64,000 bases of DNA. Origin: a phage. A program made the translations under genes and the position numbers. Shown here piece after piece: positions 4,078 through 12,109 of the stretch. The DNA is taken from assembly GCA_019326865.1 (NCBI GenBank), contig GCA_019326865.1_4101.1. One strand, given 5' to 3'. The notes under the pieces were generated by a model. That model saw only the letters and a list, made by a program, of their open reading frames with translations, searched no databases and was not told the DNA's origin. Each line of letters starts with the position of its first letter. Within the stretch, counting starts at the first letter, position 1.

Positions 4078-4153
4078 GTTGACAAACACATTCAGTACTG
4101 TATAATGCTTATCAAGGGGATGAACTTCTCATCCCTACAATCGAGGAACGACC

Positions 4154-4708
4154 ATGATTACTTTTAAGAAAACTGCTAACCACATCCATGAAATCTACAT
4201 TAACGGTCACAAAGCTGGCCTTCTTCGTTTACTCAGCCATCATCCTGATGTTATTGTATCTGATAATGAACCCAAAGATTGGCGTGTCTTTTTCTTTGGG
4301 AAGTACAGTGATTTTCAAGTATCAAATCTGAAGAACATTCGTTCAGTATGCACGTTAACTGAAATTAAAGAAAAGTTAGTAAAAGCATTGAAAACTAATC
4401 CAGATGCAGTTCTTCCACCAGATAACTTTGTAGAGAAAGGTTATGCCTTAGCTCATTTCAAAGATGGCACTATTCAATCTATCAGCACTGCATATGAATA
4501 TCAATGGACTGAGTACTTCACTTATGGCTCCCGTGAAACTTTGATGGCTTCACGTAGTAAATTGGAAGAAGTAATAACTATTATAAATGAACGTGAACGT
4601 CATTTATATGATAAACCTGAAATGTGGAGTTCAAATTACATTGACCGTATTGACTATGTTATTATGACTCCAATCTTTGACACTGCTTACTATGATTCTT
4701 TGAAATAA
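4154..4708 (+). CDS. hypothetical protein (184 aa)
   Basis: ORF with SD gaggaacgacc-ATG. Confidence 0.6.
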   Translation: MITFKKTANHIHEIYINGHKAGLLRLLSHHPDVIVSDNEPKDWRVFFFGKYSDFQVSNLKNIRSVCTLTEIKEKLVKALKTNPDAVLPPDNFVEKGYALAHFKDGTIQSISTAYEYQWTEYFTYGSRETLMASRSKLEEVITIINERERHLYDKPEMWSSNYIDRIDYVIMTPIFDTAYYDSLK

Positions 4709-4719
4709 GGATAACTTAT

Positions 4720-4896
4720 ATGAAACTACGTACTCGTAATCGTTTGATGGATGCACTGTACCACGAACAATGTACAATGAATGATGTAAAGCGTCAGTTA
4801 ATGTATACATATCAGTTACCAGCCCGTGCTGCGAAACAACGTTCCAAAGAATTACTGAAAGAAGCTATCGAGTACTGGGAATCTGATTCGTACTAA
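4720..4896 (+). CDS. hypothetical small protein (58 aa)
   Basis: Short ORF filling gap, SD aagga upstream; below track cutoff. Confidence 0.4.
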   Translation: MKLRTRNRLMDALYHEQCTMNDVKRQLMYTYQLPARAAKQRSKELLKEAIEYWESDSY

Positions 4897-4935
4897 TATT
4901 ACGTGATATGTCACGTTAATTAAGTGAGACTATAA

Positions 4936-5196
4936 ATGAAAATTTTATTAGTTCTAATACTACTAATACTACTAATTGTTTTACCATTTACTTTAGTATC
5001 TCCTGAACTTGCATGGAATGTGTTTGTGTACTTAGTATGTACTATTGCGGTAAATGGTATCTTGTTCTTAGTTCTATTCATAAATGGAATAGGACACGGG
5101 GGTGGGTGGACCAGTACTGCTGATATTGTACATAAAACCACTATGTCTTTATTTGTAGTGTGGAATTTATTCTGGACTTGGTTTGTGTTCTTCTAA
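4936..5196 (+). CDS. small hydrophobic membrane protein
   Basis: ORF encoding Leu/Ile-rich TM segments. Confidence 0.5.
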   Translation: MKILLVLILLILLIVLPFTLVSPELAWNVFVYLVCTIAVNGILFLVLFINGIGHGGGWTSTADIVHKTTMSLFVVWNLFWTWFVFF

Positions 5197-5852: not shown

Positions 5853-5858
5853 AGAAAA

Positions 5859-5885
5859 GGGTTGACTTTAGTCAGCCCTTTTTTC
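5859..5885 (+). terminator. terminator hairpin gggttgac-ttta-gtcagccc + T-run
   Basis: Perfect 8-bp stem, T-run; recurs at 9255 and 10539. Confidence 0.7.
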
Positions 5886-5891
5886 TATAAT
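5862..5891 (+). promoter_or_regulatory. sigma70-like promoter embedded in terminator hairpin (TTGACT -18- TATAAT)
   Basis: -35 lies in hairpin loop, -10 tataat just after T-run, SD and ATG follow. Confidence 0.55.
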
Positions 5892-5919
5892 CATTTCATC
5901 GGAACGGAAGGATGTTGAA

Positions 5920-6402
5920 ATGAACTATTTAGATTTAATTAATACGTATGTCATCAGCCCATATCTTAACGATGAAAGTATCAAATGTGTAGTATCTGTT
6001 GATAATCATCCAAATGGTGCATTAGAACTATTCGGTGCAGGACAGATTAACAATCGTTGTGGGTATACTTTTGAGTACTTACCAGAAAGAGATGTATTTG
6101 GTTGTTATGACCACAAAATCAAAAAAGGTGCTATATGGGGTAATCACAAAGATATTGCACAATCTTCACTTTTCGAAGATCATAATGGATATATGTGGCG
6201 TTCTCTTGGTGCAGTCCTACTTGATATCGCCCGTAGATATAAAAAGCGTATAACTCTTACTTATACACATACAGTTGAATATAAAAATGAAGTACAAGTA
6301 GAAGATGAAGAATTTTTTAAAAGTATCCCGTACATTGAATTCAACTTCCAAAACGGGTATGCTATATATCCTGATGATTTTATTGGTGAAAAATATTTTT
6401 AA
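5920..6402 (+). CDS. hypothetical protein (160 aa)
   Basis: ORF downstream of promoter/terminator element, SD ggaaggatg. Confidence 0.6.
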   Translation: MNYLDLINTYVISPYLNDESIKCVVSVDNHPNGALELFGAGQINNRCGYTFEYLPERDVFGCYDHKIKKGAIWGNHKDIAQSSLFEDHNGYMWRSLGAVLLDIARRYKKRITLTYTHTVEYKNEVQVEDEEFFKSIPYIEFNFQNGYAIYPDDFIGEKYF

Positions 6403-6493
6403 AAAATATTTGAAAAGAAAAGAATAAGTGCTATAATTATTACATCAAGACAACAAACACTAACATGTAAACGCTACTAATTAGGAGACACAC

Positions 6494-6904
6494 ATGATTA
6501 ACAAACATTTCGCAGTTTCTAAAACAGTAACCATCGATAACGAATGGGAAATTACTATTCTTAATGATCCTGCTCGTGGGTTGCTTGCAGAGAATCTTGT
6601 ACAGAAATACATCGACTGTAAGTCTGAATTGATTATTCACGACCGTACCAAATTTCTTCTCATCAATGGCAAGAAGTGTAAAGTATTAGTATTCACGGAT
6701 AAAATGAGCCGTGCAGACATTATCACCAAATTGGTAAGTTCTTCACGTCACCGCCCAGGAGTTAACAAATCTATCGAAGAAGTTAAAGATATGAAGCCTG
6801 GTGATTTATTCATTATTGCGGGTTTTGATTCTAAAACAAGAGAAATGTACATTTCAGAAATGTACACTAATGCTGAAATGCGTAACAAATTCTTCTCTAA
6901 CTAA
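6494..6904 (+). CDS. hypothetical protein (136 aa)
   Basis: ORF with SD aggagac. Confidence 0.6.
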   Translation: MINKHFAVSKTVTIDNEWEITILNDPARGLLAENLVQKYIDCKSELIIHDRTKFLLINGKKCKVLVFTDKMSRADIITKLVSSSRHRPGVNKSIEEVKDMKPGDLFIIAGFDSKTREMYISEMYTNAEMRNKFFSN

Positions 6905-6935
6905 TCAACCTAATTATGTATTATACAAATCTATA

Positions 6936-8153
6936 ATGGATAAAAATATGATCTTCGAAACAGAAAAAACTTTACTTGAAACTTATACTTTAGAAAATCT
7001 TGTACAACTTAATCTGGCCCGTCCTGATATTCAACGAAACTGGCAATGGAAAAGTAATAATCAAAATAATCTTATAATTTCTATTCTAAAGAATTCACCA
7101 ATTGGACAATTTTTGGTATGGAATGAAACTTCTTCAAATACAATGTACATTACTGATGGACGCCATCGTTATACTGTAATTTCAAACTTCATTAATAATA
7201 AGTTCCCAGTAACAGTTAAAACCGAAAGTGGAACCAAAGATTATTATTATGGTTCTGACGATCCAATCGAAGAAGAAAACATTTCACTAAAACTTGGTGG
7301 TAAAAGTAAGACTTGGAATTTCTTATCAAAAGAAGAGCGTAATGCTTTTCGCAATAAAGAAGTATCAGTAACATTTGTTCATACAGATGATGCTGAGAAG
7401 ATTTCTGAAATGTTTATGGCTATCAACACTGCTTCATCTAATTTGTGTAAAGTAGACTTGCTGGTATGCAAGCACCACAAAAATGCATACATGAAACGTA
7501 TTGATAAACTATTTTCAATTGAGATTGAAAAAGATGACCAAATGGCAGTTCTAGTTAGCGATTTCTATCGTGCAATCGGACACTGTAATGTCAACGGTAA
7601 TTACGAGAAACATTTAGCTAAACTTAAAGCTAACCCAAAAGTTCAGAAGCGTGAATTTTTTGAGATGTATTTTATGGTACGAGCCTTCACCAAATTGTGT
7701 CGTGATGCTTTAAACGATACATTGAATTCATATCGTATGCCTAAGATGAATAAACAAATTGAAGATGCTATTATTAGTACTGAATCACTGAGTGAACAGC
7801 AAGCTAACGCCGATTTTGTTCAGTTCGTGAATGCAGTTCGTGAGATGAACCTTGTATCTCCAATAAAAGATTTACAAAAGTTTCAATTCATCCACGAAGA
7901 TATGAAGAATACCTTTAACAAGCGTCTTTTTTGTATCTTAATGGGATTATATTATGCTTACGGTACACGTTTACCATTGCATTTTCGTGATGTTTGGTGT
8001 GCCATTTATAATGAAATGTCAGAAAAAAGTACTGAACTACCAACAAACGGGACTGATAGTTCTTCTGCTATTGTAGCTGGTATCCAATTGATTGAACCGT
8101 ACTTTAGTTCAGCCTTTAATAATATTTCATTGAGTGCTCGCGTGGGAAAGTGA
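6936..8153 (+). CDS. DUF262/ParB-like (GmrS-like) domain protein; motifs PDIQRNWQW and ITDGRHRYT
   Basis: N-terminal motifs resemble DUF262 signature (QR..W ... DGQQR); start placed after upstream stop; ends GTG-GGA-AAG-TGA. Confidence 0.55.
   Translation: MDKNMIFETEKTLLETYTLENLVQLNLARPDIQRNWQWKSNNQNNLIISILKNSPIGQFLVWNETSSNTMYITDGRHRYTVISNFINNKFPVTVKTESGTKDYYYGSDDPIEEENISLKLGGKSKTWNFLSKEERNAFRNKEVSVTFVHTDDAEKISEMFMAINTASSNLCKVDLLVCKHHKNAYMKRIDKLFSIEIEKDDQMAVLVSDFYRAIGHCNVNGNYEKHLAKLKANPKVQKREFFEMYFMVRAFTKLCRDALNDTLNSYRMPKMNKQIEDAIISTESLSEQQANADFVQFVNAVREMNLVSPIKDLQKFQFIHEDMKNTFNKRLFCILMGLYYAYGTRLPLHFRDVWCAIYNEMSEKSTELPTNGTDSSSAIVAGIQLIEPYFSSAFNNISLSARVGK
8144..8150 (+). other. candidate -1 programmed frameshift heptamer G_GGA_AAG immediately before stop
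   Basis: X_XXY_YYZ heptamer in zero frame of DUF262 ORF; -1 frame continues directly into HNH ORF. Confidence 0.4.
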
Positions 8154-8362
8154 AAAATCGTGGAATACTAAATATTTCACAAAAACAATATATTTTGAAA
8201 AAATATCCCGTTTGTTATCTTTGTAAACAATTTATATTAGATACAGATAAACCACACTTTGATCATGTACAGTCATTGAAAAATGGTGGTAGTAATGACC
8301 TAGAAAATATTAGACCAACGCACCCCATTTGTAATTTACGCAAAGGTGCTAAAAGTATGTAG
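8150..8362 (+). CDS. HNH endonuclease domain (C-x2-C, DH, N, H-x2-C-N), possibly expressed as fusion with upstream ORF
   Basis: CYLC...FDHVQSLKNGGSNDLENIRPTHPICNLRKG; GTG start overlaps upstream stop. Confidence 0.65.
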   Translation: MKNRGILNISQKQYILKKYPVCYLCKQFILDTDKPHFDHVQSLKNGGSNDLENIRPTHPICNLRKGAKSM

Positions 8363-8367
8363 AATAA

Positions 8368-8394
8368 AGACTCCCATTGACTGGGAGTCTTGTT
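8368..8394 (+). terminator. hairpin agactccca-ttgac-tgggagtct
   Basis: 9-bp perfect inverted repeat after stop of HNH ORF. Confidence 0.5.
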
Positions 8395-8411
8395 ATATTA
8401 AAAGGATTTAT

Positions 8412-9248
8412 ATGAGTATTAAAAATAAATTAGATCAGTATTATACAAAACCAGAGTATGCTGTAGATTGTTATACTAAATCATTAGAATTAATTTCTGA
8501 ACGTATGGATATTAGTTCATCGTATTTTATGGAACCATGTGTCGGTACTGGTTCATTTTATCTACAATTTCCTGAAGAACGTCGTTTTGGTTGTGATATC
8601 GAACCAGTACATCTTGATGAAAATGTTATACATTCTGATTTTTTGCTTGAGTTCGGGATTAATGCAAGAAGTAAAGGTGAGCCAATAATTGTTATAAGTA
8701 ATCCACCATTTGGTAAGATTTCTTCTTTGGCTATCAAATTCTTTAATAAATGTGCATCTATGCCTGAAGTGAAATATATTTGTTTTATTGTACCTAAGAC
8801 ATTCCGTAAAGTTGCAACACAGAATAAACTAAACGAGATGTTCCATCTTGTTCTTGATGAAGATTCACCACATGATGCTTTTATTCTGCATGGCGAACCG
8901 CATCATGTACCATGTGTATTTCAGATATGGGAGCGTAGAGATGAAGTTCGTGAACAACACGAAATTAAAAATAAATCAAACTACTTCCAGTTTTGTACTA
9001 AGGATGAAGCGGATATTTACATTAAGCGTGTAGGAACTAAAGCTGGTGAGTATGCTGCACCTGGTAAAGAACACAAAGATGCAAGTATGTACTACATTAA
9101 AACTGATTATGTTGATGAAATTATTAGAATTTTGCAAAGTGAAGACTACATTGACGAGATTAAACGTATACGCAAAACCACCGCTGGTGTATTCTGTGTA
9201 TCTAAATCTGAACTTGTACTGAACATTGAAAAACGTTTGAATTTTTAA
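8412..9248 (+). CDS. putative DNA amino-methyltransferase (N6-adenine or N4-cytosine), motif I VGTGSF then motif IV NPPFG
   Basis: Motif I before motif IV with short spacing suggests gamma-like order; start at ATG with SD aaagga (track start 8346 overlaps HNH). Confidence 0.6.
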   Translation: MSIKNKLDQYYTKPEYAVDCYTKSLELISERMDISSSYFMEPCVGTGSFYLQFPEERRFGCDIEPVHLDENVIHSDFLLEFGINARSKGEPIIVISNPPFGKISSLAIKFFNKCASMPEVKYICFIVPKTFRKVATQNKLNEMFHLVLDEDSPHDAFILHGEPHHVPCVFQIWERRDEVREQHEIKNKSNYFQFCTKDEADIYIKRVGTKAGEYAAPGKEHKDASMYYIKTDYVDEIIRILQSEDYIDEIKRIRKTTAGVFCVSKSELVLNIEKRLNF

Positions 9249-9254
9249 AATACA

Positions 9255-9280
9255 GGGTTGACTTAGGTCAGCCCTTTTTG
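9255..9280 (+). terminator. terminator hairpin gggttgac-ttag-gtcagccc + T-run
   Basis: Same element as 5859. Confidence 0.7.
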
Positions 9281-9315
9281 CTAAAATTCTTTCATCGAAA
9301 CGTGAGGATGAATAC

Positions 9316-9831
9316 ATGACACGCATTAACTTAGTACACGTTAAAGAACTTGCAGACCAACATCTGATGGCTGAATATCGTGAACTACCACGTGTATTTG
9401 GTGCTGTACAAAAACACGTTCAAGCACGTAAGCGTGTACGTGATTTCAAAATTAACAGTACTTATCTGTTAGGTTCAGGTCATGTGACATTCTTTTACGA
9501 CAAGTTGCTGTACTTACAGAAGCGTCATATCGATATTGTCAACGAATGTTTGCGTCGTGGTATGAAGATTCAAAATACTGAAGTAAACGACATTAGCAGC
9601 TTCCCTGCTGAGTTTTGTAATGACTATGTACCATCGGAGTCAGAGATTGAAATGTCTCGTAAGCGTTTGATTGAGAAGCTTCAGATGAAGCCTACGTGGT
9701 ATAAGTTTACTGATGTTGAATGTCCACAGTACGTTACAGATATGCTGAACGTAAGTAGTAAGTTCGAATATAGTACGGCTATGTTAGACGAAATTGAAGA
9801 ACAAATCAAAGATGAAATGAATAATTATTAA
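9316..9831 (+). CDS. denV: endonuclease V-type pyrimidine dimer DNA glycosylase/AP lyase
   Basis: N-terminal ~130 aa closely resemble T4 endonuclease V as I recall it ([50 protein letters not shown]), with a C-terminal extension. Confidence 0.85.
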
Positions 9832-11429: not shown

Positions 11430-11771
11430 ATGTGTGAGTTTTTTGAATCTAATATAATGCTTGGTATTACATTGATATACATGTATGTATTCTTGTTTTA
11501 TCATTCAATTGTAATTAGTCTTTGGTATTTTAAAAGGAAAATGGTTTTTAAATTATATTCATATGATAATGTATTCTTAGTTATATATAGTATCATACAA
11601 GGTGGGTTTGTTCTATTTGGTATTATGACGTATGTGATTTATAGATTACAAATTGATAACACACCATACATTACACAATATGTTGTGTTTTCAGGACTAA
11701 TCGTATGGTTATTGGTGTGTATAATTTATTTTATAATTAAAGCTCGTGATAAAATTAAAGGGGATTTCTAA
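11430..11771 (+). CDS. small multi-TM membrane protein, family A (C-terminal RDKIKGDF)
   Basis: Paralog array, hydrophobic. Confidence 0.65.
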   Translation: MCEFFESNIMLGITLIYMYVFLFYHSIVISLWYFKRKMVFKLYSYDNVFLVIYSIIQGGFVLFGIMTYVIYRLQIDNTPYITQYVVFSGLIVWLLVCIIYFIIKARDKIKGDF

Positions 11772-12109
11772 TGTTAGAATTTTTTAAATCAGATGTGATG
11801 CTTAGTATTACATTGATTTATATGTTTGGTTTTTTATTTTATCATCTACTAGTTGTAGTTCTATGGTATTTTAAAAAGAAAATAGTTTTCAAACTGTATC
11901 CACCTAGTAACATTTTATTGTTTCTTTACACACTTATTCAAGGTATGTTTGTTATTATTGGTGTTATCACACACTTAATCTATTGTTATAATCCACATTT
12001 AAAATCAATAACACAATATATTGTTTTCTTTGGGTTGTTCATTTGGTTAATTATATACTTAATTGAACTCATTATTCATAGTAGAGAAAAAATTCGTGGA
12101 GACTTCTAA
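11771..12109 (+). CDS. small multi-TM membrane protein, family A
   Basis: Close paralog of 11430 gene (C-terminal REKIRGDF). Confidence 0.65.
   Translation: MLEFFKSDVMLSITLIYMFGFLFYHLLVVVLWYFKKKIVFKLYPPSNILLFLYTLIQGMFVIIGVITHLIYCYNPHLKSITQYIVFFGLFIWLIIYLIELIIHSREKIRGDF

What the first reader, a model, noticed from the sequence alone, without database searches (positions are those of the whole stretch)
6936..8362. DUF262-like ORF ends on a G_GGA_AAG slippery heptamer that reads into an HNH nuclease in the -1 frame
The 405-aa ORF with DUF262/ParB-like motifs ends ...GTG GGA AAG TGA. The heptamer G GGA AAG is a canonical X_XXY_YYZ -1 slip site, and the -1 frame continues without a stop into a 70-aa HNH-motif ORF. 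A -1 frameshift would produce a ~475-aa DUF262-HNH fusion, an architecture resembling GmrSD-type modification-dependent nucleases. Alternatives are two coupled genes (GTG start) or a frameshift-inactivated gene. An amino-methyltransferase (8412-9248) follows immediately.
Basis: partly seen in the sequence, partly recalled or inferred. Interest (0 to 1): 0.78.

Follow-up and report, generated by a model that had tools for sequence, protein, structure and literature searches.

The report
Conserved frameshift joins phage DNA-sensor to nuclease
In this giant coliphage and its relatives, a DNA-binding ParB-like (DUF262) gene ends on the same slippery sequence used by phage lambda's tail genes. An occasional one-base backward slip of the ribosome would attach an HNH DNA-cutting domain, giving a two-product nuclease gene that has not been annotated or described before.

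Summary
ORF1 (6936/6948-8153; Pfam GmrSD_N/DUF262, E 1e-17) ends GTG GGA AAG TGA. The heptamer G_GGA_AAG lies at 8144-8150, and the -1 frame runs from it into a 70-codon HNH domain (Pfam HNH, E 2e-10). A gamma-type N6-adenine methyltransferase follows at 8412-9248.

The frameshift reading is strongly supported by comparison, though it has not been tested experimentally. I found nine loci in at least five clades whose ORF1 proteins are only 22-34% identical. They include two cultured phages where the HNH part is unannotated (ph0011 and Cronobacter phage GAP32). All nine carry exactly GGGAAAG in the zero frame. In 7 of 9 a stop codon follows immediately, and all have an HNH open in the -1 frame.

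The GTG "start" exists only where the stop is TGA; elsewhere that codon is GTA. Two clades have no start codon at all before the HNH CxxC motif. The virtual fusion is collinear with ordinary single-ORF DUF262-HNH proteins (hhalign E 2e-45). The slip site falls in the only disordered linker of a confident AlphaFold model.

This is a new gene family using a known recoding mechanism (the lambda G/GT heptamer). The biological role is inferred only: a dose-limited nuclease in a phage-borne restriction-like cassette with a partner protein and a methyltransferase.

The parts
6410..6437 (+). Sigma-70-like promoter candidate (TTGAAA-16-TATAAT, 11/12) upstream of the cassette
   Evidence: Consensus scan only. 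Function not shown.
6494..6904 (+). 136-aa partner ORF that always sits immediately upstream of the DUF262 gene. It has no Pfam, PHROG or PADLOC family.
   Evidence: Homologues were found only in the same lineages that carry the split nuclease (P0169-P0176; alignments). The AF2 model has pLDDT 84.5. Fold matches are weak (E >= 1.7e-3); several are PD-(D/E)xK-type nucleases.
6948..8153 (+). ORF1, the zero-frame product. It has 401 aa from the conserved ATG 6948, or 405 aa from ATG 6936. It consists of a ParB-like DUF262 domain plus an alpha-helical domain and ends ...SARVGK*.
   Evidence: Pfam GmrSD_N E 1.1e-17. PADLOC NsnA E 2e-12 over residues 29-338. Start codon comparison. AF2 model.
8144..8150 (+). 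[quoted passage not shown] This is the proposed -1 frameshift site.
   Evidence: Sequence. Identical in all 9 loci across at least 5 deep clades. It is the same heptamer as lambda G/GT (PMC3296357) and is among the three best E. coli heptamers (PMC4066793).
8151..8153 (+). Zero-frame UGA stop directly 3' of the heptamer. A stop in this position is conserved in 7 of 9 loci.
8150..8362 (+). The -1 frame extension of 70 codons. It has a basic linker (VKNRGILNISQKQYILKKYP) followed by an HNH nuclease domain (CYLC...DH...N...H..C). GTG 8150 is a possible but non-conserved independent start.
   Evidence: Pfam HNH E 2.3e-10. The excess of synonymous changes in the linker is seen only in this frame. 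HNH catalytic and zinc residues are invariant across 22 sequences.
8160..8180 (+). Weak 8-bp hairpin lying 9 nt 3' of the heptamer. It is a possible but unproven stimulator.
   Evidence: Energy -6.3 kcal/mol, z-score -1.25. It is compensated in ph0011 but not kept in L002 or L005. Other clades have different hairpins at 4-12 nt.
8367..8391 (+). GC-rich hairpin between the HNH stop and the methyltransferase start. It resembles a terminator but has a poor U-tract.
   Evidence: The stem is kept in ph0011, L002 and L005.
8412..9248 (+). N6-adenine DNA methyltransferase (motif I EPCVGTGSF, motif IV NPPF). It is linked to the nuclease in most lineages.
   Evidence: PADLOC MTase_II E 1.3e-34. phrog_5172 E 3e-88. 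Synteny.
9254..9275 (+). Terminator-like hairpin with a T-run that ends the cassette, just before the promoter-like site and denV.

Best explanation
This is one gene decoded in two frames.

Most ribosomes translating ORF1 read ...GUG GGA AAG and stop at UGA (8151-8153). That releases a roughly 46-kDa protein made of a ParB-like DUF262 domain and a helical domain that is probably DNA-binding.

A minority slip one base backward on G_GGA_AAG (8144-8150). The tRNA-Gly re-pairs from GGA to GGG and the tRNA-Lys from AAG to AAA. Translation then continues with GUG AAA AAU..., and the same two domains gain a flexible basic linker and an HNH nuclease domain (471-475 aa, about 55 kDa).

The adjacent stop codon probably helps the slip, through slow termination with the shift-prone tRNA-Lys on A_AAG. 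A modest downstream hairpin may also help.

Inferred, not shown:
- The short form and the nuclease-bearing long form co-assemble, as ParB/GmrSD-type proteins dimerise. The frameshift would then fix a low, constant dose of a potentially toxic nuclease.
- Together with the obligatory 136-aa partner protein and the adjacent N6-adenine methyltransferase, the gene forms an accessory restriction-like cassette. The phage would use it against host DNA or competing phage DNA while marking its own.
For: 1. **Site conservation.** Nine loci have exactly GGGAAAG in the ORF1 frame: the window, ph0011, L002, L005, L007, L008, L009 (also L010 and L015), GAP32 and L011. Their ORF1 proteins fall into at least 5 clades at 22-34% identity. 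Gly-Lys are the only invariant residues in the C-terminal 25 positions. Even given Gly-Lys, this genome's codon usage predicts the nucleotide heptamer with p of about 0.0075 per lineage, or about 3e-9 for four further independent clades.

2. **Narrow shift window.** The zero-frame stop follows immediately in 7 of 9 loci. The -1 frame is closed only 1-2 codons upstream of the heptamer in L005, L009, GAP32 and L011. The only stretch where a shift can work in all lineages is therefore the heptamer itself.

3. **No conserved start.** GTG at the junction occurs only with TGA stops (window, ph0011) and is GTA or GCC elsewhere. L008 and L011 have no ATG, GTG or TTG between the slip site and the CxxC motif.

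4. **The linker is coding in the -1 frame from the heptamer on.** Synonymous versus non-synonymous codon differences are 25/54 in that frame, against 5/67 and 5/61 in the other two. The conserved motif is K-R-G-x-L-N-x-x-Q-K-x-Y.

5. **The virtual fusion resembles real proteins.** A profile of the fusions aligns end to end, without a break at the junction, to single-ORF DUF262-HNH proteins (hhalign probability 100, E 1.9e-45, positions 15-474 against 7-421). Many such 405-470-aa proteins exist. Pfam finds GmrSD_N and HNH in one ORF in them.

6. **Structure.** The AF2 model of the fusion has pLDDT 87 and pTM 0.75. Its only low-confidence internal segment is residues 401-410, which is the junction.

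7. **The heptamer is a proven slip site in E. coli.** It drives lambda G/GT, where about 4% of ribosomes shift (PMC3296357). It is 'highly shift-prone' (PMC5009743), among the three best heptamers (PMC4066793), and was used as a reporter slip site (PMC6815119).

8. **Not an assembly error.** The same frame arrangement appears in two GenBank phages, an IMG/VR contig and several independent SRA and ENA assemblies.
Against: - No protein evidence was available here, such as a trans-frame peptide, Ribo-seq data or a reporter assay.
- No conserved stimulatory structure or upstream SD-like element was found. The window hairpin is weak (z -1.25), and the hairpins in other clades differ in position and sequence. 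Without stimulators, reported efficiency for this heptamer is only about 0.3-4% (PMC4066793).
- In the window and ph0011, a GTG overlapping the stop (GTGA) could also give a free 70-aa HNH by termination-reinitiation.
- In five further lineages an ATG, GTG or TTG lies 10-16 codons after the slip site (L002, L005, L007, L009, GAP32). A truncated free HNH is therefore not excluded there.
- GmrS and GmrD are known to exist as two separate proteins in some bacteria (PMC4619093 abstract), so a two-polypeptide nuclease has precedent.
- The functional part rests only on domain content and synteny: dose control, hetero-oligomers and a restriction-like role. L007 and L011 show no adjacent methyltransferase.
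Confidence: 0.85

Rival explanations
1. There are two separate, translationally coupled genes. Ribosomes terminate at UGA and re-initiate at the overlapping GTG (GTGA), making a free 70-aa HNH protein that binds the DUF262 protein non-covalently, as separate GmrS and GmrD do.
For: A GTGA overlap is present in the window and ph0011. One gene caller produced a 70-aa protein cluster for the ph0011-type ORF (P0007). GmrS/GmrD occur as two proteins in some strains (PMC4619093 abstract).
Against: The start codon is not conserved. It is GTA with TAA or TAG stops and GCC in L002 and L005, and two clades have no canonical start before the CxxC motif. The only SD-like sequence lies 2 nt from the GTG. 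This model does not explain invariance of the nucleotide heptamer at 22% protein identity. It also does not explain -1-frame coding constraint that begins right at the heptamer in L002 and L005, where the first start lies 15 codons further on. It could still operate alongside frameshifting in the window.
Confidence: 0.08
2. This is a frameshift-inactivated gene, or a sequencing or assembly error in a formerly fused DUF262-HNH gene. The HNH part is not made.
For: In-frame fused relatives are the common form in cellular genomes. GenBank annotators left the HNH part unannotated in ph0011 and GAP32.
Against: The same -1 arrangement is kept in at least 5 clades and many independent assemblies. The HNH catalytic and zinc residues are invariant (C427, C430, D443, N458, C466; H444 and H463 nearly invariant). 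The HNH core shows an excess of third-position and synonymous changes (98 synonymous against 81 non-synonymous codon differences). No member of the clade has reverted to a simple in-frame fusion, although that would take a single 1-nt indel.
Confidence: 0.02
3. The frame change is made at the RNA level. RNA polymerase slips on GGGAAA and adds or removes a base in a fraction of transcripts. It is not made by the ribosome.
For: The outcome, a fixed minority of fused product from a conserved short repeat, would look the same in genome comparisons. Nothing here distinguishes RNA-level from ribosome-level events directly.
Against: From established knowledge, and from the topics of review PMC5009743, productive transcriptional slippage needs long homopolymer runs, typically 7 or more A or T. 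Here the runs are G3 and A3. What is conserved is the exact X_XXY_YYZ register relative to the zero frame together with an adjacent stop, and both are features of ribosomal slippage.
Confidence: 0.03

Closest known systems
Phage lambda G/GT tail-assembly chaperone frameshift
   Same: It uses the identical heptamer G_GGA_AAG, encoding Gly-Lys in both frames. A zero-frame stop lies just downstream, there is no required RNA stimulator, and a minor C-terminally extended product (about 4%) is made in E. coli (PMC3296357).
   Different: The gene family and biology are completely different: tail chaperones rather than a DUF262/HNH nuclease. Here the stop is usually directly adjacent to the heptamer. 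The trans-frame part is a catalytic domain, not a tape-measure-binding domain.
IS3/IS911-family OrfA / OrfAB transposase frameshift (established knowledge; motif statistics in PMC4066793)
   Same: The logic is the same. The zero-frame product is a DNA-binding protein, and a -1 shift on an X_XXA_AAG heptamer appends the catalytic DNA-cleaving domain. The ratio limits a dangerous DNA-cutting activity.
   Different: IS elements mostly use A_AAA_AAG with a strong pseudoknot or hairpin and an upstream SD-like element. They add a DDE transposase domain, and there is no methyltransferase or partner protein.
GmrSD / BrxU Type IV restriction enzymes
   Same: Both have an N-terminal DUF262 ParB-like NTPase-type domain, a helical middle domain and a C-terminal His-Me-finger nuclease. 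BrxU (7p9k) is the best PDB fold match (E 1e-4, probability 0.99). Pfam names the N-domain GmrSD_N.
   Different: The nuclease here is PF01844 HNH, not DUF1524. The DUF262 motif is DGRHR rather than DGQQR. The gene is phage-encoded and linked to a methyltransferase and a small partner protein. The nuclease is attached by recoding. Modification dependence is unknown.
Single-ORF 'ParB-like and HNH nuclease domain' proteins of bacteria (the name JGI gives P0156; examples P0039, P0012, P0132, P0011)
   Same: They are collinear over the whole length, including the pre-HNH motif R-x-F/L-S/N-x-x-Q-K/R-x-x-L...CxxC (hhalign E 1.9e-45; sequences).
   Different: They are encoded in one frame. They were found next to HEPN/Abi_C and toxin-antitoxin genes, without the partner ORF or methyltransferase. 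They are only about 20% identical to the phage protein.
Menshen NsnA (ParB-DUF262 + ParBDB sensor)
   Same: NsnA is the best PADLOC hit of ORF1 (E 2e-12, residues 29-338). The zero-frame product therefore resembles a complete DUF262 plus DNA-binding 'sensor' module (PMC12065111).
   Different: No NsnB ABC-ATPase or NsnC effector gene lies next to it. Here the effector (HNH) is attached to the sensor itself.

Membership tests
Programmed -1 ribosomal frameshift gene (X_XXY_YYZ type) | Canonical slippery heptamer in the zero-frame register | tested here: met
   G_GGA_AAG lies at 8144-8150 in the ORF1 frame. It is a documented efficient E. coli heptamer.
Programmed -1 ribosomal frameshift gene (X_XXY_YYZ type) | The heptamer is conserved in divergent orthologs beyond what protein constraint and codon usage predict | tested here: met
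   It is identical in 9 loci across at least 5 clades at 22-34% identity. The codon-usage expectation is 0.0075 per lineage.
Programmed -1 ribosomal frameshift gene (X_XXY_YYZ type) | The -1 ORF is open from the site, has a short overlap, and has no conserved independent start | tested here: met
   The overlap is only 1-9 codons upstream. The junction codon is GTA or GCC in 7 of 9 loci. L008 and L011 have no canonical start before CxxC.
Programmed -1 ribosomal frameshift gene (X_XXY_YYZ type) | The trans-frame product is homologous to a contiguous protein elsewhere | tested here: met
   hhalign probability 100, E 1.9e-45, collinear across the junction.
Programmed -1 ribosomal frameshift gene (X_XXY_YYZ type) | A stimulatory element is present (downstream structure 5-9 nt away, or an upstream SD-like sequence) | tested here: inconclusive
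   The window has a weak hairpin at +9 nt (z -1.25). L008 has a hairpin at +7 nt (z -2.8), L011 at +4 nt (z -1.9) and L007 at +12 nt; L009 has none. No shared structure was found. The adjacent stop codon is conserved in 7 of 9 loci. Lambda G/GT is generally held to need no stimulatory element (established knowledge; not checked in a paper here).
Programmed -1 ribosomal frameshift gene (X_XXY_YYZ type) | The trans-frame protein is detected and depends on the heptamer | not testable with these tools
   This needs a tagged construct, mass spectrometry or Ribo-seq.
GmrSD family Type IV restriction enzymes | N-terminal DUF262 (GmrS) domain | tested here: met
   Pfam PF03235 E 1.1e-17, 65 bits against a 33-bit cut-off. 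The best PDB fold match is BrxU.
GmrSD family Type IV restriction enzymes | C-terminal DUF1524 (GmrD) nuclease domain | tested here: not met
   The Pfam scan of the C-terminal ORF gives PF01844 HNH and HNH_5 only, with no DUF1524 hit at E <= 1.
GmrSD family Type IV restriction enzymes | Canonical DGQQR motif of the DUF262 domain | tested here: inconclusive
   The window has DGRHR. Relatives have DGQHR, DAKHR or DGLQR. Asp74 and Arg78 are invariant.
GmrSD family Type IV restriction enzymes | Cleavage only of modified (glc-hmC) DNA | not testable with these tools
   This is biochemical. The linked methyltransferase argues neither way.
Single-chain ParB-like (DUF262) + HNH nuclease proteins | DUF262, a helical domain and HNH in this order, with catalytic residues intact | tested here: met
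   (invariant Q33, R34, D74, R78, C427, C430, D443, N458, C466).
Single-chain ParB-like (DUF262) + HNH nuclease proteins | Encoded as one continuous ORF | tested here: not met
   A -1 frame change is needed in every member of the phage clade.
Menshen (NsnABC) defence system | NsnA-like DUF262 + ParBDB protein followed by an NsnB ABC-ATPase and an NsnC effector | tested here: not met
   There is an NsnA-like hit. The neighbours, however, are the 136-aa partner ORF, the HNH extension and a methyltransferase, with no ABC ATPase or NsnC adjacent.
Type II restriction-modification system | A DNA methyltransferase adjacent to a nuclease whose activity it blocks | tested here: inconclusive
   The methyltransferase is present (PADLOC MTase_II 1e-34) and is linked in 7 of 9 loci. 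It lies downstream in six and upstream in L008. None was found next to L007 or L011. Protection was not testable.

The most novel reading that the evidence does not exclude
The frameshift would be a built-in ratio device for a phage-borne restriction-like weapon. The zero-frame product is a complete ParB/DUF262 DNA sensor. A few percent of chains carry the HNH blade. Mixed oligomers, the obligatory 136-aa partner and the methyltransferase would together keep the nuclease off phage DNA and aim it at host or rival-phage DNA. Because slippage on A_AAG depends on host tRNA-Lys(UUU) modification, as shown for lambda G/GT, the nuclease dose would also track host physiology. This would be the first recoding-controlled member of the DUF262/GmrSD-type nucleases, and the first programmed frameshift described in a restriction or defence-type nuclease.
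Probability: 0.35. Interest if true: 0.85.

Novelty: new variant of a known kind. Interest (0 to 1): 0.72.

Why it matters
- **A new case of recoding.** Known bacterial and phage frameshifts fall into a few classes, such as tail chaperones, IS transposases and dnaX. This adds a conserved, previously unannotated example in a nuclease of the ParB/DUF262 superfamily, which is now central to many anti-phage systems (GmrSD, BrxU, SspE, Menshen, PD-T4-2).

- **Annotation fix.** The HNH domain is missing from the GenBank records of ph0011 and GAP32. Gene callers miss it in every metagenomic locus seen here.

- **A testable model.** The site offers a simple natural system to ask why a DNA sensor and its nuclease should be made at a fixed unequal ratio. 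The clade never reverted to a simple fusion, which argues that both products are needed.

- **Phage biology.** It points to a three-gene accessory cassette in jumbo phages that may act in phage-host or phage-phage conflict.

Tried and rejected
- **Stimulatory RNA structure.** I folded the 57-117 nt after the heptamer in the window and in seven relatives. The window hairpin (8160-8180) is weak. It is compensated in ph0011 but not kept in L002 or L005. Other clades have unrelated hairpins at 4-12 nt. I treat this as inconclusive, not as support.
- **Known RNA families.** Rfam gave no hit at E <= 1 in 6000-9600.
- **Upstream SD-like stimulator.** TTGAGTGC is invariant only within the close group and is absent in the deep clades. 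Rejected.
- **More lineages.**
  - The IMG/VR scans gave only L015, the same type as L009, and an unrelated locus L014.
  - The single metagenome scan gave only distant in-frame DUF262-HNH genes (L017-L019).
  - The alignment of deep homologues was too divergent for pattern scanning.
  - The profile search in the word-indexed database added no new split lineages.
- **Literature.** No relevant paper combines frameshift with DUF262 and HNH, and none combines GmrSD with programmed frameshift. The 2016 recoding review has no 'HNH' in the 300,000 characters held.
- **Partner ORF function.** Only weak Foldseek matches were found (best E 1.7e-3), several to PD-(D/E)xK nucleases. That is not enough to assign a function.
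- **Phage tRNA-Lys.** I checked whether a phage tRNA-Lys in the window might modulate slippage. The window has no tRNA genes.
Full report
**What is in the window.** The window comes from a jumbo coliphage of the 121Q/PBECO4 (Asteriusvirus) group. Its denV region is 92-96% identical to many such phages. The reported sequence is exactly as described...GCT CGC GTG GGA AAG TGA AAA ATC GTG GAA....

- ORF1 runs from ATG 6936 to the UGA at 8151-8153.
- The heptamer G_GGA_AAG lies at 8144-8150 in the ORF1 register.
- The -1 frame is open from 8123 to 8362 and encodes 70 residues from GTG 8150.
- ORF1 matches Pfam GmrSD_N (the former DUF262) at E 1.1e-17, above the curated cut-off.
- The 70-residue ORF matches Pfam HNH at E 2.3e-10.
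- The next ORF (8412-9248) is a Type II-like N6-adenine methyltransferase with an NPPF motif (PADLOC MTase_II E 1e-34; phrog_5172 E 3e-88).

One small correction applies. Comparison with relatives shows the conserved start is ATG 6948 (MIFETEK...), preceded by a conserved TGGA. The upstream ATG is out of frame in ph0011. ORF1 is therefore probably 401 aa and the fusion 471 aa.

**Why one genome is not enough.** A GTGA stop/start overlap is commonplace in phages, and a heptamer near an ORF end could be chance. The window has no other in-frame G_GGA_AAG in its 15 ORFs of 200 aa or more. The decisive evidence has to come from relatives.

**Relatives.** The cassette is rare.

- Among 50,697 phage records, only Escherichia phage ph0011 has it at the DNA level (84% identity). 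A tblastn search adds Cronobacter phage GAP32 (22% identity).
- An exhaustive HMMER search with the virtual fusion found five cluster representatives that match ORF1 along its whole length: P0004 (73%), P0005 (34%), P0006 (30%), P0008 (23%) and P0009 (25%).
- Every one of these ends in ...GK.
- Their contigs, together with ph0011 and GAP32, give nine loci in at least five clades. ORF1 proteins from different clades share only 22-34% identity.

**What the junctions show.**

- All nine loci carry exactly GGGAAAG, in the zero-frame register G_GGA_AAG. It is preceded by GTG, TCG or GAG.
- A zero-frame stop (TGA, TAA or TAG) follows immediately in seven loci. In L002 it comes one codon later and in L005 six codons later. 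L005 has a second heptamer, G_GGA_AAC, directly before that stop.
- In every locus an HNH domain is open in the -1 frame from the heptamer onward.
- That frame is closed by a stop only 1-2 codons upstream of the heptamer in L005, L009, GAP32 and L011.
- Taken together, the only place where a frame change could work in all lineages is the heptamer itself.
With TAA or TAG that codon is GTA, and in L002 and L005 it is GCC.
- L008 and L011 have no ATG, GTG or TTG anywhere between the slip site and the CxxC motif of the HNH.

**Statistics.** Gly404 and Lys405 are the only invariant residues in the last 25 positions of ORF1. They lie in a segment that AlphaFold models as disordered. Even if Gly-Lys is taken as given, this genome's codon usage predicts the nucleotide heptamer in only 0.75% of cases: P(third-position G) 0.14 x P(GGA|Gly) 0.21 x P(AAG|Lys) 0.26. 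For four further independent clades that is about 3e-9.

**Is the -1 frame translated from the heptamer on?**

- In the four closer lineages, the 21 codons between the slip site and CxxC show 25 synonymous and 54 non-synonymous codon differences in the -1 frame. The other two frames show 5/67 and 5/61. These pairwise counts are not independent, so they are descriptive only.
- The encoded motif K-R-G-x-L-N-x-x-Q-K-x-Y is conserved in L002 and L005, upstream of their first possible start codon.
- The same stretch corresponds to the pre-HNH motif of ordinary single-ORF DUF262-HNH proteins, R-x-F/L-S/N-x-x-Q-K/R-x-x-L...CxxC (sequences).
- A profile of the eight virtual fusions aligns to a profile of 14 such in-frame proteins over positions 15-474 against 7-421. 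The hhalign probability is 100 and E is 1.9e-45, with no break at the junction.
- HNH catalytic and zinc residues are invariant or nearly so across both groups.
- The HNH core shows the third-position excess expected of a coding region under purifying selection.

**Structure.**

- An AlphaFold2 model of the window fusion has pLDDT 87 and pTM 0.75. It shows an N-terminal alpha/beta DUF262 domain, a helical domain ending at about residue 395, and a C-terminal beta-beta-alpha HNH.
- The only low-confidence internal segment is 401-410, which is the frameshift junction. The slip site therefore sits in an interdomain linker. The zero-frame product is a complete two-domain protein.
- The best PDB match is BrxU, a GmrSD-family Type IV enzyme (7p9k, E 1e-4). 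ParB N-domains and the McrA and Gme HNH domains follow.
- ORF1's best PADLOC hit is Menshen NsnA (E 2e-12, residues 29-338). NsnA is described as a ParB-DUF262 plus ParBDB DNA-binding 'sensor' (PMC12065111).

**Mechanism.**

- G_GGA_AAG is the lambda G/GT slip site. There it encodes Gly-Lys in both frames, and about 4% of ribosomes shift (PMC3296357).
- It is 'highly shift-prone' in E. coli (PMC5009743).
- With C_CCA_AAG and A_AAA_AAG, it is one of the three most efficient heptamers. Efficiency is about 0.3% unassisted, up to about 3.7% with a favourable 3' context, and tens of percent with a pseudoknot (PMC4066793).
- It has been used as a reporter slip site (PMC6815119).
- I found no conserved stimulator. 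The window has a weak 8-bp hairpin 9 nt downstream (z -1.25), which is compensated in ph0011 but lost in L002 and L005. L008, L011 and L007 have unrelated hairpins at 7, 4 and 12 nt, and L009 has none.
- The one conserved context feature is the adjacent stop codon. By the classical 'shifty stop' idea (Weiss et al. 1987, cited in PMC5009743), this should favour slippage of tRNA-Lys on A_AAG while termination is slow.
- My estimate is that the fusion is a minor product of about 1-10%. This is an inference.

**Rivals.**

- Coupled re-initiation at GTG 8150 may occur in the window and ph0011. It cannot explain the conserved heptamer or the lineages without a start codon.
- A pseudogene or assembly error is excluded by conservation across many independent assemblies and by purifying selection on the HNH.
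- Transcriptional slippage is unlikely on G3A3 runs.
- No member of the clade has become a simple in-frame fusion, although one indel would do it. This argues that both products, or a low dose of the long one, are selected.

**Context and function (inferred).**

- Phage 121Q has denV directly after its gene 216. The window and ph0011 carry extra ORFs there, and JP4 has an unrelated HNH gene at the same spot. The cassette is therefore an accessory insertion in a variable site.
- The 136-aa ORF at 6494-6904 has homologues only in the same lineages as the split nuclease. It always lies immediately upstream. Its fold gives only weak matches, several to PD-(D/E)xK nucleases.
- The methyltransferase is adjacent in 7 of 9 loci. 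In L010 it is 71% identical to the window's methyltransferase, although the nuclease there is only 22% identical. No methyltransferase was seen next to L007 or L011.
- Cellular in-frame relatives sit among HEPN/Abi and toxin-antitoxin genes without a methyltransferase.
- A restriction-like module carried by the phage is the most economical reading. The methyltransferase would mark self DNA, and the DUF262/HNH enzyme with its partner would attack host or competitor DNA. The direction of modification dependence is unknown.

**Known or new?** The mechanism and even the heptamer are textbook. The gene family, and the idea of attaching the nuclease domain of a DUF262/GmrSD-type enzyme by recoding, were not found in the searched literature. 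The 300,000 characters held of the 2016 recoding review contain no mention of HNH, nor does a 2025 frameshifting survey. GenBank annotations of ph0011 and GAP32 omit the HNH part. I classify it as a new variant of a known kind.

**Verdict.**

- The frameshift interpretation is supported by strong comparative evidence (confidence about 0.85). Direct protein evidence is still needed.
- The functional model is tentative.
- Interest: 0.72.

Noticed in passing
window 5853-9300 (compare L012 = 121Q and L013 = JP4): The whole block between the gp216-like ORF and denV is absent from phage 121Q, where gene 216 abuts denV. The block holds the 160-aa ORF at 5920-6402, the partner ORF, the DUF262/HNH gene and the MTase. 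In JP4 and several others an unrelated 137-aa HNH endonuclease gene sits at this spot. The site upstream of denV is a hot spot for accessory or mobile genes in Asteriusviruses.
   Followed up: partly
L016 (GAP32, NC_019401) 4128-4360; L001 (ph0011, OP557969) 4739-4951: In both GenBank records the -1-frame HNH ORF is not annotated, leaving a gap between the DUF262 CDS and the MTase CDS. In GAP32 the HNH stop (TGA) overlaps the MTase ATG (ATGA), so the MTase may be translationally coupled to the frameshifted product there.
   Followed up: partly
L005 6197-6224 (also L006): This lineage has a direct repeat AGCGTGGGAAA...AGCGTGGGAAA. It gives two in-register slippery heptamers 18 nt apart: G_GGA_AAG, then G_GGA_AAC directly before the TAA stop. 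Both lead into the same HNH frame.
   Followed up: no
window 8367-8391: A GC-rich hairpin sits between the HNH stop and the MTase start. Its stem is kept in ph0011, L002 and L005, but the U-tract is poor. It could be a leaky terminator, an RNA processing site, or a regulator of MTase translation.
   Followed up: partly
L010 1999-2832 compared with window 8412-9248: The methyltransferase is 71% identical between the window and L010, while the adjacent DUF262 proteins are only 22% identical. Either the nuclease evolves much faster than the MTase, or the modules have been shuffled between cassettes.
   Followed up: no
window 6494-6904: The 136-aa partner protein has no family in Pfam, PHROGs, NCBIfam or PADLOC. 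Its confident AF2 model (pLDDT 84.5) gives only weak Foldseek matches. Several are PD-(D/E)xK-type nucleases (MGME1, Cas4-like, bunyavirus cap-snatching endonuclease). It has a PGD...DSK motif that is not strictly conserved.
   Followed up: partly
window 11430-12109: Two adjacent paralogous ORFs of about 112 aa (11430-11771 and 11771-12109) encode very hydrophobic, multi-pass membrane-like proteins with near-identical N-termini (M.EFF.S..ML.ITLIYM). The homologous regions of ph0011 and 121Q annotate a run of five or six similar-sized ORFs in a row.
   Followed up: no
window 1-64000: ARAGORN finds no tRNA or tmRNA gene in the 64-kb window.
   Followed up: yes
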